From the NCBI GenBank assembly GCA_951406725.2, contig OX597821.1, forward strand, positions 20,832,001 to 20,896,000: a DNA stretch of 64,000 nt. Reading direction: 5' to 3'. Origin of the DNA: Octopus vulgaris (taxonomy: Eukaryota). The notes below the pieces were generated by a model. That model made no database searches. It was given only the letters and a program-made list of their open reading frames with translations, and had not been told where the DNA came from. The translations under genes and the position numbers were made by a program. This document shows, one piece after another, positions 12,332 to 51,891 of the stretch; the stretch's first letter is position 1; each line of letters begins with the position of its first letter.

Positions 12332-12339
<8 letters not shown>

Positions 12340-12604
12340 ATGTTACATTACTCGGTAGTCAAGATAAAACTCTGAGTTTCAGATGCCGAAGTGGAAATCC
12401 ACAACACCATCTCTTCGGTTATCTGGCTATTTCCAGATAACCAGATAACCGAAGAGATGGTGTTGTGGATTTCCACTTCGGCATCTGAAACTCAGAGTTT
12501 TATCTTGACTACCGAGTAATGTAACATATTGTATAGATAAATTTCCTCTATTTACATAATATTGAGGTCTCTTTCTTTCTTTTGTTATCTTACCGTTTTA
12601 TCAA
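12332..12604 (+). mobile_element. fold-back non-autonomous element in (TA)n
   Basis: Perfect ~95-bp inverted arms 12332-12426 and 12441-12535; the right arm continues to (TA)n at 12605. Confidence 0.8.
12443..12505 (+). ncRNA. hammerhead-like motif with atypical core CCGAAGA / UGAAA
   Basis: AGAUAA CCGAAGA GAUG..GUGGA-UU-UCCAC..CAUC U GAAA CUC A GAG UU UUAUCU; stems I (6 bp), II and III all pair; mirror copy at 12362-12424 (-). Confidence 0.65.
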
Positions 12605-17519: not shown

Positions 17520-18812
17520 CGTGGGGCGTTCAATAAGTAATGCCCCTGACCCACTTCCCATAGCAGTAGAGCAACGAAACTTGGCACAGTTATTAGTCTT
17601 TTTCTACATAGGAACCACCCAGAGTTACGCATTTCTCCCATCGTATCCTGCAGCTCTGAAGACCATTTTTGTAGAAGACCCCAGCTTGGTCCTCCAACCA
17701 CGACGTGACTTCAGAAATCAAGGCTGCATCATCTGGGAAACGCTTTCCTTTCAAAAACAACTTCATGGCTGGGAAGAGGTGAAAATCAGAGGATGCAAGG
17801 TCAGGAGAGTAGGGGGGATGGGGGATGAGTTCATAGCCGCACGCCTGTGCTTCTGATCTGGCGACACGCGAGTTGTGGACCGGAGCGTTGTCCTGCAGGA
17901 GGCGGATGCCTTTGCTGATCTTGTTCCGCCTCTTGATTTTGATAGCTTCTCTTAATTTCCTCAAAAGTGAAGCATAATAGACTCCTGTAATTGTGGCACC
18001 CTTTGCCAAGAAATCTGTCGTCACTACTCCGTCCTGGTCCCAGAAGACTGTGAGCATGACCTTGCCAGCGGAGGGCTGCACCCTTGCCTTCTTTGGAGGA
18101 GGTGAGTCACGGTGCTTCCACTGCATTGACTGGGCTTTGGTCTCTGGATCATAGTGATGGACCCAGGTTTCATCCTGTGTAATCAGTCTTTTGAAAAATT
18201 TTGACTCATCTTCTTGGCACATCTTCAAATTCATCCTCGCGCTATCGACGCATTCTTGCTTCTGGAAAGGTGTGAGCAGCCTGGGAATCCATCTGGCAGA
18301 CACCTTTTGCATATGCAAATGGTCATGAATGATAGTTTCCACAGACCCGGTACTAATATTGACCTCATGGGCTATTTGGCGAATAGTTATGCGTCGATCT
18401 TCCAAAATGGCAGCCTCAACTTGACGGGACAGATGCCTCGTCAATGGCAGAAGGGGGCGACCAGATCTGGGAGCTGTTTCCACAAAGTTCCGACCATGTT
18501 TGAATTCACGATGCCAGCGTCTTAGAAGGTCATATGATGGGGCATCATCACCATAAGTTACTTTTATTTCATCAAAATTCTCCCGTGGTGTGCGTCCTTT
18601 CAAATACAAAAACCGGATCACTGCTCGACACTCAACAGGCTCCGTTTCACACTTGACTCAGTTCAAACACCTGTAAATCAGAAACCACAATTAGTTCAGA
18701 GCTGTAATTTGCCACTTAATCTATAAAGATATAGGTAATTGCACATGCAATATTTCAGCTAGATCAAACAACAGCAAGTGGGTCAGAAGCATTACTTATT
18801 GAACGCCCGTCG
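17520..18812 (-). mobile_element. full-length mariner transposon (1293 bp) with TIRs and TA target duplication
   Basis: TA|CGTGGGGCGTTCAATAAGTAATGCCCCTGACCCACTT ... AAGTGGGTCAGAAGCATTACTTATTGAACGCCCGTCG|TA. Confidence 0.97.
17593..18645 (-). CDS. mariner DD34D transposase (irritans-like); frame open, expected ATG reads ACG
   Basis: WIPRLL, QDETWVHHYD, LQDNAPVH-(34)-YSPDLASSDFHLF; in-frame upstream ACG GAG CCT GTT GAG TGT CGA GCA GTG. Confidence 0.85.
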   Translation of the reverse strand, partial: TEPVECRAVIRFLYLKGRTPRENFDEIKVTYGDDAPSYDLLRRWHREFKHGRNFVETAPRSGRPLLPLTRHLSRQVEAAILEDRRITIRQIAHEVNISTGSVETIIHDHLHMQKVSARWIPRLLTPFQKQECVDSARMNLKMCQEDESKFFKRLITQDETWVHHYDPETKAQSMQWKHRDSPPPKKARVQPSAGKVMLTVFWDQDGVVTTDFLAKGATITGVYYASLLRKLREAIKIKRRNKISKGIRLLQDNAPVHNSRVARSEAQACGYELIPHPPYSPDLASSDFHLFPAMKLFLKGKRFPDDAALISEVTSWLEDQAGVFYKNGLQSCRIRWEKCVTLGGSYVEKD

Positions 18813-23672: not shown

Positions 23673-25869
23673 CTTCCACACATTCTCCACACATTCACAC
23701 ATTCTCCACATTCTCACATTCTCCACATTCTCACATTCTCCACACATTCTCACATTCTCCACATTCTCACATTCTCCACACATTCTCACATTCTCCACAT
23801 TCTCACATTCTCCACATTCTCACATTCTCCATACATTCTCACATTTTCCACACATTCTCACATTCTCCACACATTCTCACATTCTCCACATTCTCACATT
23901 CTCCACACATTCTCACATTCTCCACATTCTCACATTCTCCACACATTCTCACATTCTCCACATTCTCACATTCTCCACATATTCTCACATTCTCCACATT
24001 CTCACATTCTCCACACATTCTCACATTCTCCACATTCTCACATTCTCCACACATTCTTACATTCTCCACATTCTCACATTCTCCACACATTCTCACATTC
24101 TCCACATTCTCACATTCTCCACACATTCTCACATTCTCCACATTCTCACATTCTCCACACATTCTCACATTCTCCACATTCTCACATTCTCCACACATTC
24201 TCACATTCTCCACATTCTCACATTCTCCACACATTCTTACATTCTCCACATTCTCACATTCTCCACACATTCTCACATTCTCCACATTCTCATATTCTCC
24301 ACACATTCTCACATTCTCCACATTCTCACCTTCTCCACACATTCTCACATTCTCCACATTCTCACATTCTCTACACATTCTCACATTCTTCACATTCTCA
24401 CATTCTCCACACATTCTCACATTCTCCACATTCTCACATTCTCCACACATTTTCACATTCTCCACATTCTCACATTCTCCACACATTCTCACATTCTCCA
24501 CATTCTCACATTCTCCACACATTCTCACATTCTCCACATTCTCACATTCTCCACACATTCTCACATTCTCCACATTCTCACATTCTCCACACATTCTCAC
24601 ATTCTCCACATTCTCACATTCTCCACACATTCTTACATTCTCCACATTCTCACATTCTCCACACATTCTCACATTCTCCACATTCTCATATTCTCCACAC
24701 ATTCTCACATTCTCCACATTCTCACATTCTCCACACATTCTCACATTCTCCACATTCTTACATTCTCCACATTCTCACATTCTCCACACATTCTCACATT
24801 CTCCACATTCTCACATTCTCCACATTCTCACATTCTCCACACATTCTCACATTCTCCACATTCTCACATTCTCCACATATTCTCACATTCTCCACATTCT
24901 CACCTTCTCCACACATTCTCACATTCTCCACACATTCTCACATTCTCCACATTCTTACATTCTCCACATTCTCACATTCTCCACACATTCTCACATTCTC
25001 CACATTCTCACATTCTCCACACATTCTCACATTCTCCACACATTCTCACATTCTCCACATTCTCACATTCTCCACACATTCTCACATTCTCCACATTCTC
25101 ACATTCTCCACACATTCTCACATTCTCCACACATTATCACATTCTCCACACATTCTCACATTCTCCACATTCTCACATTATCCACACATTCTCACCTTCT
25201 CCACACATTCTCACATTCTCCACATTCTCACATTCTCTACACATTCTCACATTCTTCACATTCTCACATTCTCCACACATTCTCACATTCTCCACATTCT
25301 CACATTCTCCACACATTTTCACATTCTCCACATTCTCACATTCTCCACACATTCTCACATTCTCCACATTCTCACATTCTCCACACATTCTCACATTCTC
25401 CACATTCTCACATTCTCCACACATTCTCACATTCTCCACATTCTCACATTCTCCACACATTTTCACATTCTCCACATTCTCACATTCTCCACACATTCTC
25501 AAATTCTCCACATTCTCACATTCTCCACACATTCTCACATTCTCCACATTCTCACATTCTCCACACATTCTCACATTCTCCACATTCTTACATTCTCCAC
25601 ATTCTCACATTCTCCACACATTCTCACATTCTCCACATTCTCACATTCTCCACATTCTCACATTCTCCACACATTCTCACATTCTCCACATTCTCACATT
25701 CTCCACACATTCTCACATTCTCCACATTCTCACATTCTCCACACATTCTCACATTCTCCACATTCTCACATTCTCCACACATTCTCACATTCTCCACATT
25801 CTCACATTCTCCACACATTCTCACATTCTCCACATTCTCACATTTTCCACACATTCTCACATTCTCACA
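23673..25869. repeat. 2.2-kb minisatellite of 17- and 19-bp units (TTCTCACATTCTCCACA[CA]), mostly alternating as a 36-bp dimer
   Basis: Direct reading; no G on the + strand across the array. Confidence 0.98.
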
Positions 25870-26060: not shown

Positions 26061-26272
26061 CTCTTTTCTCTTCTACTTGTTTCAGTCATTTGACTGCGGC
26101 CATGCTGGAGCACCGCCTTTAGTGGAACAAATCGAACCCGGGATTTATTCTTTGTAAGCCCAGTACTTATTCTATCTTTTTCGTTTGCCGAACCGCTAAG
26201 TGACGGGGACGTAAACACACCAGCATCGGTTGTCAAGCAATGCTAGGGGGACAAACACAGACACACAAACAT

Positions 26273-26321
<49 letters not shown>

Positions 26322-26445
26322 TACGACAGGCTTCTTTCAGTACTTATTCTATCGGTCTCTTTTGCCGAACCGCTAAATGATGGGGACGTAAACACACCAG
26401 CATCGGTTGTCAAGCAATGCTCGGGGGACAAACACAGACACACAA

Positions 26446-26539
<94 letters not shown>

Positions 26540-27495: not shown

Positions 27496-28590
27496 ATCCG
27501 GTTTTTGTATTTGAAAGGACGCACACCACGGGAGACTTTTGATGAAATGAAAGTAACTTATGGTGATGATGCCCCATCATATGACCTTGTAAAACGCTGG
27601 CATCGTGAATTCAAACATGGTCGGAACTCTGTGGAAACAGCTCCCAGATCTGGTCGCCCCCTTCTGCCATTGATGAGGCATCTGTCCGTCAAGTTGAGGC
27701 TGCCATTTTGGAAGATCGACGCATAATTATTCGCTAAATAGCCCATGAGGTCAAGATTAGTACTGAGTCTGTGGAAACTATCATTCATGACCATTTGCAT
27801 ATGCAAAAGGTGTCTGCCAGATGGATTCCCAGGTTGCTCACGCCTTTCCAGAAGCAAGAACGCGTCGAGTCCTCGAGGGTGGATTTGGAGATGTGCCAAG
27901 AAGATGAGTCAAAAGTTTTCAAAAGACTGATTACACTGGATGAAACCTGGGTCCATCACGATAATGCAGAGACCAAAGCCCAGTCAATGCAGTTGAAGCA
28001 CCGTGACTCACCCCCTCCAAAGAAGGCAAGGGAGCAGCCCTCCGCTGGCAAGGTCATGCACACAGTCTTCTGGGACCAGGACGGAGTAGTGATGACAGAT
28101 TTCTTGGCAAAGGGTACCACAATTGCAGGAGCCTATTATGCTTCACTTTTGAGGAAATTAAGATAAGTTTTCAAAATCAAGAGGTGGGGCAAGATCAGCA
28201 AAGGCATCCGCCTCCTGCAGGACAACGCTCCGTCCACAACTCGCTTGTCGCCAGATCAGAAGCACAGGCGTATGGCTATGAACTCCTCCCCATTCCCCCT
28301 ACTTTCCTGACCTTGCATCCTCTGATTTTCACCTCTTCCCAATCATGAAGTTGTTTTTGAAAGGAAAGCGTTTCCCAGATGATGCAGCCTTGATTTCTGA
28401 AGTCACGTTGAGGTTGGAGGACCAAGCTGGGGTCTTCTACAAAAACGGTCTCCAGAGCCGCATCAAACGATGGGAGAAATGCGTAACTCTGGGTGGTTCC
28501 TATGTAGAAAAAGACTAATAACTGTGCCAAGTTTCGTTGCTCTACTGCTATGGGAAGTGGGTCAGGGCATTACTTATTGAACGCCCCTCA
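27496..28590 (+). mobile_element. 5'-truncated mariner, same family as 17520-18812, frameshifted
   Basis: Begins at ATCCGGTTTTTG (IRFL) next to (TA)n; 3' TIR ...TTATTGAACGCCCCTCA|TA; stops and frameshifts. Confidence 0.95.
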
Positions 28591-28591
28591 T

Positions 28592-28950
28592 ATATATATT
28601 AGAAGAAATGAGGTAATCAGAAGATCGGATGGTTCATATTTATAGATATTATTTATATATTACATTTTTTACATGTATATATCATATCATTCAGATTATT
28701 AGCGCTTTCTCCCATTCTAGTGGGGTTTTCAAATCAAATTAATTCCACAAAGGAATTAATTTGATTTGAAAACCCCACTAGAATAGGAGAAAGCGCTAAT
28801 AATCTGAATGATATGATCTGAATGATATGATATATATATGTAAAAAATGTAATATATAAATAAATATCTATAAATATGAACCATCCGATCTTCTGATTAC
28901 CTCATTTCTTCTAATATATAATACCTGTACATCATCTCCAAACCTTCCAC
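28592..28950 (+). mobile_element. fold-back non-autonomous element in (TA)n with UUGAAAA hammerhead-like motif
   Basis: ~155-bp inverted arms around the loop ACAAA (28747-28751); the right arm extends to 28950; motif TTGAAAA CCCC..(A/G)GGA GAAA GCGC TA at 28766-28798. Confidence 0.7.
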
Positions 28951-37483: not shown

Positions 37484-37753
37484 TTATTTAAAAGCAGCGG
37501 AAATTTAACTGAAGTGTCAAATTCACATGATCAAATATTGGATTGTACACAACTGCAGTCACTAAGGTGGTTTTCACAGATAGTCTAACACAGGTTAAGT
37601 CGAAATTGTTAAAAACTGTCCGACGACGGGAACGTGAAACTCCGAGTAACAGCTTTTGTTAAATTTCTGCTGCTTTTAAATAAAGCATATTACTCTACCT
37701 CTGGTATTTGAGTACTCTTTTTCCCACCTTGTTTCACATTTATGCGTTTACTC

Positions 37754-37756
<3 letters not shown>
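37484..37756 (+). mobile_element. non-autonomous element in (TA)n with short 5' inverted copy
   Basis: TTATTTAAAAGCAGCGGAAATTTAAC (37484-37509) is the inverse of GTTAAATTTCTGCTGCTTTTAAATAA (37658-37683). Confidence 0.75.
37611..37657 (+). ncRNA. hammerhead-like motif with atypical core CCGACGA / UGAAA
   Basis: AAAAACUGU CCGACGA CG-GGAA-CG U GAAA CUC C GAG UA ACAGCUUUU; stem I 4+4 bp, stem II closed by a GNRA loop. Confidence 0.65.
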
Positions 37757-44697: not shown

Positions 44698-44745
<48 letters not shown>

Positions 44746-44951
44746 TGTATATATACATATAGATGTAAGTATGTACATATATGTATGTATATATGCATAT
44801 ATTTTATTTATTTATTATATGACCGAACGCACGCGTTGTTTCTCTTCTCCAAGTAAGTTTTTATTTGAATAATCATGACGCGCACTCTTACTCTTTACTT
44901 GACCTTTCCTCTATCTTCCTCTCTACTTGTCTCTCTCCTTATTGTCTCTCT

Positions 44952-44992
<41 letters not shown>

Positions 44993-45216
44993 TGTATATA
45001 TACATATAGATGTAAGTATGTACATATATGTATGTATATATGCATATATTTTATTTATTTATTATATGACCGAACGCACGCGTTGTTTCTCTTCTCCAAG
45101 TAAGTTTTTATTTGAATAATCATGACGCGCACTCTTACTCTTTACTTGACCTTTCCTCTATCTTCCTCTCTACTTGTCTCTCTCCTTATTTTTCACCCTT
45201 TCTGGTTTCTATTTCC

Positions 45217-46621: not shown

Positions 46622-46719
46622 CAATTAGTCAATTTAGGGTAGCAAAAAAATTCAATAGAAATTTATCGCTACCAACGGCCTAGTGGAAAAGAGAAAATAG
46701 TCAACGACTAAGTATATAA

Positions 46720-46905
46720 ATATAACAATTTAGGAATGACCCTAACAGGTCATTCGTCCACCAGAAAGAGCAGCCATAACTCACACCGCCAAGTAGTAGT
46801 AATTCAGAAATTAATTTCTGAATTACTACTACTTGGCGGTGTGAGTTATGGCTGCTCTTTCTGGTGGACGAATGACCTGTTAGGGTCATTCCTAAATTGT
46901 TATAT
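46720..46905. repeat. perfect 186-bp palindrome with no spacer
   Basis: 93-bp arms centred on AGAAATT|AATTTCT (46812/46813). Confidence 0.95.
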
Positions 46906-50907: not shown

Positions 50908-51115
50908 GAGTAGAAATGCTCTAATGCTGTAGTCAACGGACATAAATGCATGCATATACTCTAACAGGGACCTTTATCCTGTATACATTTACAGTTATGT
51001 ACGTTGACTACAGCATTAGAGTATTTTAGGTCTTATTTTGGCAATGTCTCTCTTTCTAACACATTAGTCACATTTATAATTCTGCTCTTTGGTGAAACAT
51101 TGCAAACTAACGTTT
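50908..51115 (+). mobile_element. short fold-back element with decayed CCG-type hammerhead-like motif
   Basis: ~33-bp inverted arms 50913-50945 and 50995-51026; GTTATGT (C/A)CGTTGA CTACAG...CTTTGG T GAAA CATTG CA AACTAAC. Confidence 0.45.
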
Positions 51116-51123
51116 ATATAAAA

Positions 51124-51891
51124 CTAGCTTAAGGTGACCCGCTCTACGCCCGGGTAACAGTGTGGTTGCTTATATTCAGTTGCTTACATTCAGTTTTTTA
51201 TCACCACATTCTCCCTCTTTGTTTCTCTCTCCTTTATCTCTCACTTTCCCACTCTCTTACTCCTCCTTTCTCTCGGACTCTCCTTCGCTTTCTCTTACTC
51301 TCTATCTTTCTCTATCTCTCTGTCTCCCATTTATAAACAACAGAAGATCTTGAGTAAGTTGAGAAAGAAAGTAGTTTGAAAGATCAATCATAAATATCAG
51401 GCAGTGACAACGGAAAGGTCTGCTTCAAGGCAGACAGCAAAGCACAAACATTTAAAAGGGACAGACGAACTTGCGAGCTGAATAAAAATTTTTAAAATAT
51501 TGGAAACCAAAAGGGATAGAATCTGAGGATAGTAGAGTTACCATGGCTGGCATTTCTTAACGACGGACAGCAACGTAGTGGCAGTTTAACGGATGGTGTA
51601 AAATTTTGAACTTGATATAAAAGAAAATTCCTAAACACCAAGTTTTTAAGTGATTCTGTCTCACGACAGTAGATTCAACTTCGCAAGCATTCAAAACTTC
51701 TTCATCATGGACAGCAACTCATTGACGATTTAAAGGCTGGCGCAAATTTTTTAGCTTGATCTAACAGATAATTCCTAAACACCCGCTCCTATAAATTGTA
51801 ATCCCCTTCCAGCCCCATTTAGACCCCGTTTCACATTTTGGTTAATATAACCCGATTTCATTCGTGTCTACTCGGGCCACATTTTATAAGA
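51124..51891 (-). mobile_element. non-autonomous Helitron
   Basis: Minus-strand 3' hairpin ACCCG-GGCGTAGAG-CGGGT then CTAG|T; candidate 5' end A|TCTTATAAAA at 51891 is less certain. Confidence 0.65.

What the first reader, a model, noticed from the sequence alone, without database searches (positions are those of the whole stretch)
12443..12505. Recurring atypical hammerhead core CCGANGA...U-GAAA-CUCNGAG-UH with covarying stems
Seen: 12443-12505 reads AGAUAA CCGAAGA GAUG..CAUC U GAAA CUC A GAG UU UUAUCU. An otherwise unrelated element at 37611-37657 reads ACUGU CCGACGA CG-GGAA-CG U GAAA CUC C GAG UA ACAG. Stems I and II differ entirely in sequence yet pair in both. Both share two departures from the consensus: C at position 4 and an extra U between stem II and G12. 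Both also have a near-palindromic stem III with a 1-nt loop. A decayed third case lies at 50994-51111. Established: Penelope-like elements carry minimal type I hammerheads whose palindromic stem III supports dimeric cleavage. Inference: the same double deviation in independent families looks like a conserved core variant rather than decay. I cannot tell whether it is already catalogued.
Basis: partly seen in the sequence, partly recalled or inferred. Interest (0 to 1): 0.85.

Follow-up and report, generated by a model that had tools for sequence, protein, structure and literature searches.

The report
Hammerhead variants in Penelope retrotransposons
These are hammerhead (self-cutting RNA) motifs at the ends of two related jumping-gene families with thousands of copies; their odd letters vary between subfamilies rather than forming one conserved new core, and any cutting is predicted to be weak and was not tested.

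Summary
The motifs at 12443-12505 and 37616-37652 are real (0 in 100 shuffles; 7,512 genome matches vs 1 control). Both are type I hammerheads at the 3' ends of Hydra-clade Penelope-like elements whose ORFs are 42% identical, so the families are relatives, not independent. The claimed shared double deviation does not hold. In family 2 the 'extra U' comes from a rare A deletion (14 vs 7,504 matches); normal copies have A opposite U, A, G or C. A U before GAAA and the ACUC-N-GAGU stem III are already tabulated for Hydra hammerheads. Position 4 switches between C and U (10,507 C, 8,802 U, 412 purine), in opposite directions in the two families; U4C is a known viroid variant. What survives: family 1 has a fixed extra pyrimidine before G12 (lacking in 1 vs 6,796), and its youngest, ORF-intact subfamily combines C4 with that U. 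I did not find this core in the tables I could read; Lünse 2017 was unavailable. The third case holds no hammerhead. The scan has reported a Hydra hammerhead in another genome. Verdict: minor new variant of a known kind; cleavage untested.

The parts
12443..12505 (+). Type I hammerhead, family 1, youngest subfamily: stem I 12443-12448/12500-12505; core with C4 at 12449-12455; stem II G10.1-C11.1, 4 bp plus apical hairpin; extra U at 12486; GAAA 12487-12490; palindromic stem III; predicted cut after U17, between 12499 and 12500
12362..12424 (-). Identical hammerhead copy in the inverted arm of the same insertion
12336..12604 (+). 5'-truncated, 5'-inverted stub of a Hydra-clade Penelope-like element (3' pseudo-LTR plus one-sided tail) between (TA)n tracts; 98-99% identical to the 3' end of a 2.58-kb ORF-bearing unit; no ORF here
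37616..37652 (+). Type I hammerhead, family 2, older C4/U subfamily; this copy lacks the A that follows A9 in the family; predicted cut after A17, between 37648 and 37649
37611..37756 (+). 3' stub of a second Hydra-clade Penelope-like family, ending in (TA)n
50980..51125 (+). 3' tail of a third repeat family, with a short 5' inversion; NOT a hammerhead. The family's canonical hammerhead lies upstream and is absent from this copy

Best explanation
The two motifs are type I hammerhead sequences in the 3' pseudo-LTRs of two related Hydra-clade Penelope-like retrotransposon families, and their odd letters are subfamily-level states of a likely weak ribozyme, predicted to cut as a dimer or with protein help, not one conserved new core. 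Shown: each family places the motif 3' of an RT + GIY-YIG ORF (about 190 nt behind the stop in family 1). In a family-1 tandem array the predicted cut sites recur every 2,579-2,585 nt, each 211 nt before the next ATG. Inferred: cleavage after U17 (or A17) would release unit-length, ORF-complete RNA from tandem or read-through transcripts, with two palindromic stem III halves pairing between two motifs. Inferred: activity is low, because cDNA that starts in the 3' tail has to pass through an uncut or re-ligated site. That would tolerate U4-C4 exchange, a mismatched 10.1-11.1 pair (family 2) and an extra pyrimidine before G12 (family 1). Family 1's extra base likely arose when one base was lost from the 5' strand of stem II. 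The window copies are truncated stubs; copy 1 would be buried in a 95-bp hairpin if both arms were transcribed.
For: ORFs beside the motif. Hydra signature motifs and (TA)n targets. Families 42% identical. Published Hydra hammerheads show the same layout; by my count 14 of 26 Hydra rows have U opposite U at 10.1/11.1 and 5 of 26 have the ACUC-N-GAGU stem III. Position 4 among ACUC-N-GAGU motifs: C 10,507, U 8,802, purine 412. Hand tally of the first 100 listed family-1 matches: C4+U 57, C4+C 7, U4+C 24, U4+U 9, other 3. First 100 family-2 matches: base before GAAA A 54, U 23, G 20, C 3; C4 44, U4 56. Low-divergence classes are C4/U in family 1 (p about 0.04 vs 0.24-0.29) but U4/A in family 2 (0.03 vs 0.19 for C4/U). 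A tree of 40 copies needs 4 changes of C4 and places the extra base earlier than the young C4 clade. Covariation in 17 family-1 copies: 92.7% of cells paired, 6 of 17 pairs with two-sided change, against 39-54% for slid controls. Stem III self-duplex -9.2 kcal/mol. All 30 copies picked by a core-free 3' pattern run on upstream through the cut site. U4C, 2-bp stems II and a U10.1-U11.1 mismatch are known natural features. An Anolis PLE hammerhead cut only with protein added and was not needed for insertion in vitro.
Against: No cleavage or expression data were obtained. No Rfam hammerhead model matches. Folding predicts that the extra U pairs with A9 (p=0.87) in the youngest family-1 form, which would compete with the active A9-G12 contact; C at that place gives p=0.00. 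The monomer MFE does not form stem I, whose pair probabilities are 0.16-0.58. Two-sided changes in the basal stem II come from a single copy; the 17 rows are related and include both arms of one insertion. Most samples were selected by core-containing patterns, so core invariance is partly built in; the core-free sample has only 18 of 30 copies passing a register filter.
Confidence: 0.8

Rival explanations
1. One reading: C4 plus an extra U before G12 is one coupled, conserved core variant reached by independent families, one change compensating the other.
For: C4 together with U before GAAA occurs in 7,512 matches. It is the state of the youngest family-1 subfamily, of an older family-2 subfamily and of a third small family.
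Against: In family 2 that U faces an A in 100 of 100 listed copies and is replaced by A, G or C in 77 of 100. The A-less form has 14 matches; in 7 of the 13 other copies the inverted sister arm keeps the A and in none does it lack it. C4 occurs with canonical G-C and A-U junctions, and the extra base occurs with U4. The families are homologous.
Confidence: 0.07
2. The motif is a hammerhead by descent but is catalytically dead in the youngest family-1 subfamily; it persists by drift or as a structural or protein-binding signal because cleavage is dispensable for transposition.
For: Predicted A9-U pairing (p=0.87) on top of U4C, which lowers activity in vitro. PLE hammerhead cleavage was not required for insertion in vitro. 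Naiad elements thrive without canonical hammerheads. 30 of 30 copies span the cut site.
Against: Position 4 stays a pyrimidine in 19,309 of 19,721 matches. In the core-free sample, shared changes fall on positions 4 and 7, stem II and loop 3, and only scattered ones on the other core positions (small sample). U4C still supports viroid infectivity.
Confidence: 0.25
3. Chance matches or neutral decay (for example CpG deamination) with no real motif.
For: CpG decay probably explains some U4 and extra-U copies in old subfamilies (inference). Copy 2's deletion is real decay.
Against: 0 hits in 100 shuffles; thousands of matches against 0-3 controls; fixed position behind a PLE ORF; covariation; older U4 copies keep many other CpGs.
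Confidence: 0.02

Closest known systems
Hammerheads of Hydra-clade Penelope-like elements (Craig et al. 2021, PMC8557442, File S2; e.g. Hydra-2_aJap, Hydra-2_aMil, Penelope-3_HM, Hydra-1_oBim)
   Same: Type I, 3' of the ORF, short stems I and II, 4-bp/1-nt palindromic stem III (ACUC-N-GAGU in 5 of 26 rows), U before GAAA facing an unpaired base (14 of 26 rows U-U). Family 2 has nearly the layout of Hydra-2_aJap. Family 1's ORF resembles Hydra-1_Obim by eye.
   Different: All 34 rows of that table have U4. None of the 26 Hydra rows has an extra base on the 3' side of stem II only, as family 1 does. The Hydra-1_oBim hammerhead has another stem III, so it is a different family.
Minimal PLE hammerheads (Cervera and de la Peña 2014, PMC4209133)
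   Same: In pseudo-LTRs, palindromic stem III, low activity seen only in dimeric, trimeric or helix-III-extended constructs, often in opposite-strand pairs.
   Different: Their consensus has the extra base between 9 and 10.1 and a G10.1-C11.1 pair. None of 56 aligned motifs has C4, though their descriptor carried the catalytic boxes.
Natural core variants: viroid U4C, U10.1-U11.1, 2-bp stem II (Perreault et al. 2011, PMC3088659); CYGANGA search descriptors (PMC13481778)
   Same: C4 and a weak or mismatched stem II are already accepted natural states.
   Different: Perreault et al. treat core variants as rare; here C4 is about half of some 19,700 matches and marks young subfamilies.
In vitro selected hammerheads with a bulged nucleotide in stem II (Thomson et al. 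1996)
   Same: Recalled: an extra A, C or U before GAA was tolerated at lower efficiency and read as a stem II bulge, which is family 1's arrangement. Only the title was seen, in a reference list.
   Different: Artificial, U4 background; the paper was not held, so the detail is unverified.

Membership tests
Type I hammerhead ribozyme | Three-stem junction closed by stem I, with C3, G5, A6, G8, A9, G12, A13, A14, A15.1-U16.1 and H17 | tested here: met
Type I hammerhead ribozyme | U at position 4 (strict consensus) | tested here: not met
   C4 in both window motifs; U4 in 8,802 and C4 in 10,507 genome matches; C4 is a known natural variant
Type I hammerhead ribozyme | G12 directly after the closing pair of stem II | tested here: not met
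   Family 1 has one extra base (1 match without it vs 6,796 with it). Family 2 fits if A opposite N is read as pair 10.1-11.1
Type I hammerhead ribozyme | Stems supported by covariation | tested here: met
   6 of 17 pairs with two-sided change, best in outer stem I and the apical hairpin; related rows, and basal stem II rests on one copy
Type I hammerhead ribozyme | Match to an Rfam hammerhead model | tested here: not met
   No hammerhead family at E<=10 for either copy
Type I hammerhead ribozyme | Site-specific self-cleavage after position 17 | not testable with these tools
   No raw RNA reads were offered
PLE dimeric hammerhead | Short palindromic stem III able to pair between two copies | tested here: met
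   Self-duplex -9.2 (family 1) and -7.4 to -7.8 kcal/mol (family 2); tandem units exist
Hydra-clade Penelope-like element | [quoted passage not shown] | tested here: met
   717-aa open frame, 2.58-kb unit; the Pfam GIY-YIG match is weak, E=0.015, below cut-off
Hydra-clade Penelope-like element | RWK and DKT motifs; CxCX5C linker; CxxC and CxH near the C-terminus | tested here: met
   All read in the family-1 ORF against the definition. The family-2 ORF seen is N-terminally incomplete and one linker Cys is Phe; it is assigned by 42% identity
Hydra-clade Penelope-like element | Insertion into (TA)n; 5' truncation and inversion; tail at one end | tested here: met
   (TA)4 within 130 nt 3' in 36 of 42 and 64 of 67 distinct contexts vs 0.19 background; fold-back with one-sided tail in the window
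Hydra-clade Penelope-like element | Placement in an RT phylogeny with reference PLE clades | not tested
   Reference proteins were only compared by eye
Non-LTR retrozyme | Short non-coding tandem units, each with a hammerhead | tested here: not met
   No such tandem array at either motif; the tandem unit seen carries the full ORF; definition

The most novel reading that the evidence does not exclude
The youngest Hydra element subfamily of this genome (thousands of near-identical copies, intact ORFs, tandem arrays) runs on a natural hammerhead that has both C4 and a base inserted before G12 and still cleaves, with the inserted U acting as a brake by pairing with A9. Its subfamily ladder (canonical junction, then U4+C, C4+C, C4+U) is a natural mutational series that tunes cleavage and makes the open question of what PLE hammerheads do directly testable.
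Probability: 0.25. Interest if true: 0.55.

Novelty: new variant of a known kind. Interest (0 to 1): 0.3.

Why it matters
Hammerheads in Hydra-clade Penelope-like elements are catalogued, so the locus itself is ordinary. Two modest points remain. First, searches that fix CUGANGA and a direct stem II-GAAA junction would miss about half of this genome's ACUC-N-GAGU motifs and nearly all of family 1, so such hammerheads are probably undercounted. Second, the role of PLE hammerheads is unsettled. A lineage that kept amplifying while position 4 and the stem II junction changed stepwise offers ready-made natural variants to test whether cleavage is tuned down or dispensable.

Tried and rejected
Rfam: the whole-window scan listed only miRNA-type and other chance matches among its best 150 of 349 rows; the local scans found no hammerhead. 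Third case: rejected after aligning 19 relatives. Idea that the A-less family-2 form is a small mobilised subfamily: rejected, since 7 of 13 sister arms keep the A, none lacks it, 6 showed no sister match, and flanking diagnostic bases differ. Reading the extra U as a G10.1-U11.1 pair with a bulged C: energetically disfavoured (-2.8 vs -8.7 kcal/mol), although alignment to outgroup copies suggests that this base is the former 11.1. Expression: no RNA holder listed. Contigs of four runs were laid; three span the motif in one piece with no letter change listed inside it, but contigs show neither ends nor strand. tblastn of both PLE proteins found no ORF remnant in the window. Literature: searches for CCGANGA/CCGAUGA/CYGANGA, U4C (17), extra nucleotide with G12 (69), octopus (70), Hydra clade (86) and HGAA (87) showed no report of the family-1 core. 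Lünse et al. 2017, Thomson et al. 1996, Ambrós and Flores 1998 and Hammann et al. 2012 were not held; Lünse 2017 could already list it. Rows dropped: none from the hand tallies (first 100 listed per search, all on contig 1). 3 shifted-register rows were left out of the 17-row covariation alignment. 12 of 30 rows failed the register filter, mostly truncated inside the motif; 2 of the 18 kept look partly truncated. The divergence classes include a few duplicate loci.

Full report
Observation. The first motif is exactly where and as described, 12443-12505 (+). It sits in a fold-back with 95-bp perfect arms (12332-12426 and 12441-12535), so an identical copy lies on the - strand at 12362-12424. 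The second motif is at 37616-37652. A strict descriptor found these 3 hits, and none in 100 local dinucleotide shuffles. In the own genome (2.8 Gb) the pattern has 7,512 matches against 1 control. Rfam has no hammerhead match to either copy at E<=10.

The third case fails. No core lies at 50994-51111. The stretch aligns to 19 relatives as the 3' tail of another repeat. In several relatives a canonical hammerhead (mostly U4, no extra base, a longer palindromic stem III) lies some tens of bases upstream; the window copy is truncated before it.

What carries the motifs. Loci with two family-1 motifs hold an RT ORF with a C-terminal GIY-YIG-like domain ending about 190 nt before the motif. One array has four motifs spaced 2,585, 2,579 and 2,580 nt apart and two open 717-codon frames; each predicted cut lies 211 nt before the next ATG. 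The protein has RWK, DKT, CxCX5C, CxxC and CxH, the features given for the Hydra clade (section read), and by eye it resembles Hydra-1_Obim. Family 2 has its own ORF, 42% identical over 501 aa. Both families end in (TA)n (36 of 42 and 64 of 67 distinct contexts, background 0.19). The window copies are ORF-less stubs; copy 1 is 98-99% identical to the 3' end of the full unit. The host is probably an octopod (inference from the likeness to Hydra-1_Obim).

The 'extra U' in family 2. The family pattern has 7,504 matches, and all 100 listed have an A between A9 and the 2-bp stem. The A-less form seen in the window has 14 matches with a slightly narrower pattern. Of the 13 other such copies, 7 have an inverted sister arm that keeps the A and none has one lacking it, which points to repeated deletion in a short repeat. 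In normal copies the base before GAAA is A 54, U 23, G 20, C 3 (my tally), so it is a loose 10.1-11.1 opposition. That layout is published: in File S2 of PMC8557442, 14 of 26 Hydra rows have U opposite U there and 5 have the same stem III (my count). A U10.1-U11.1 mismatch and 2-bp stems II are described in PMC3088659 (section read).

The extra base in family 1 is real. There are 6,796 matches with it and 1 without. In the first 100 rows the states are C4+U 57, C4+C 7, U4+C 24, U4+U 9, other 3 (my tally). Homologous outgroup copies have a canonical junction, several with C4. A tree of 40 short sequences (90 columns, position 4 included, many weak branches, midpoint root) runs from these through U4+C to C4+C and C4+U, and needs 4 changes of the C4 label. 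The extra base most likely arose by loss of one base from the 5' strand of stem II (inference).

Position 4. Among motifs with the ACUC-N-GAGU stem III there are 10,507 C, 8,802 U and 412 purine. The least diverged class is C4 in family 1 but U4 in family 2 (small classes, a few duplicate loci). C4 is thus a recurrent lineage state that is not tied to the base before G12. U4C is known from a viroid, where it lowers activity in vitro yet permits infectivity (passage in PMC3088659), and CYGANGA is used in a search descriptor (passages in PMC13481778).

Structure. In 17 family-1 copies, 92.7% of cells pair and 6 of 17 pairs change on both sides; slid controls pair in 39-54% of cells. Support is best in outer stem I and the apical hairpin; the rows are related. 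A 1-nt loop cannot close, so the monomer has a 3-bp stem III with a 3-nt loop, while two copies form a self-duplex of -9.2 kcal/mol. In the youngest form the extra U is predicted to pair with A9 (p=0.87), which C cannot do. A transcript through both arms of the window locus folds into one long hairpin (-176 kcal/mol). A sample chosen without the core (30 loci) showed shared changes at positions 4 and 7, stem II and loop 3, and only scattered changes elsewhere in the core among the 18 rows that passed a register filter, which itself includes G8 and A9. All 30 continue upstream through the cut site.

Mechanism. Shown: position, architecture, copy numbers and subfamily states. Inferred: slow cleavage after position 17, through the stem III dimer or with the ORF protein, which would free unit-length RNA from tandem transcripts; and low activity is tolerated or favoured because cDNA must cross the site. 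This follows PMC4209133 (parts 1-2 of 4 and supplement parts 1-2 of 3 read: no activity as a monomer, low as dimer or trimer) and PMC11167929 (passages: cleavage needed added protein and was not needed for insertion in vitro). I put 0.8 on this account, 0.25 on the youngest family-1 motif being catalytically dead (this overlaps the first on identity) and 0.07 on a coupled variant.

Novelty. Hydra-clade hammerheads are known, and this scan has reported one from another genome (e1-7769371, seen after my reading was formed; I checked the table it cites, not its locus). None of 34 rows in File S2 or 56 motifs in the 2014 alignment has C4, and no Hydra row has a 3'-only extra base; those searches started from the canonical core. 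Six paper searches found no report of this core. Lünse et al. 2017, a large catalogue of PLE variants, could not be read, nor could Thomson et al. 1996, whose selected stem II bulge I recall as matching family 1 (title only seen). Other papers seen: PMC6765202, PMC6155905, PMC11014351 and PMC12531169 as passages, and bioRxiv 10.64898/2026.07.22.740005 part 1 of 5 (its supplements are closed). Verdict: a minor new variant of a known kind, interest 0.3.

Noticed in passing
window 17593-18657 (-): 354-codon open frame resembling a mariner-type DDD transposase (label recalled from its motifs); an inverted second copy of parts of it lies at 27686-28567.
   Followed up: no
window 28690-28810 and 46714-46900: Further fold-back palindromes beside (TA)n, possibly 5'-inverted stubs of other Penelope-like families; no hammerhead core found there.
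   Followed up: partly
window 23679-25866: 36-bp minisatellite of about 61 copies, 95% matches.
   Followed up: no
window 26161-26500 and 44708-45190: Two-copy tandem repeats of 177 and 247 nt.
   Followed up: no
L119, L124, L125, about 1380-1450: The family behind the 'third case' carries a canonical type I hammerhead with a 10-nt palindrome in loop 3; one relative (L122) has C4.
   Followed up: partly
G000:C1:286716-286756 and many others: A very abundant further hammerhead family with the typical PLE extra base after A9 and mostly U4; a looser pattern gave 32,775 matches vs 1,146 controls genome-wide.
   Followed up: no
L002, L008, L172: A further small C4 family with a short, poorly paired stem II; no ORF found in the fetched flanks.
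   Followed up: partly
L102:386-8180: Head-to-tail array of four family-1 motifs with two open 717-codon frames, a sign of recent activity.
   Followed up: yes
L204-L233: At least 12 of 30 intermediate-age family-1 copies are truncated or inverted inside the hammerhead itself, none at the predicted cut site.
   Followed up: partly
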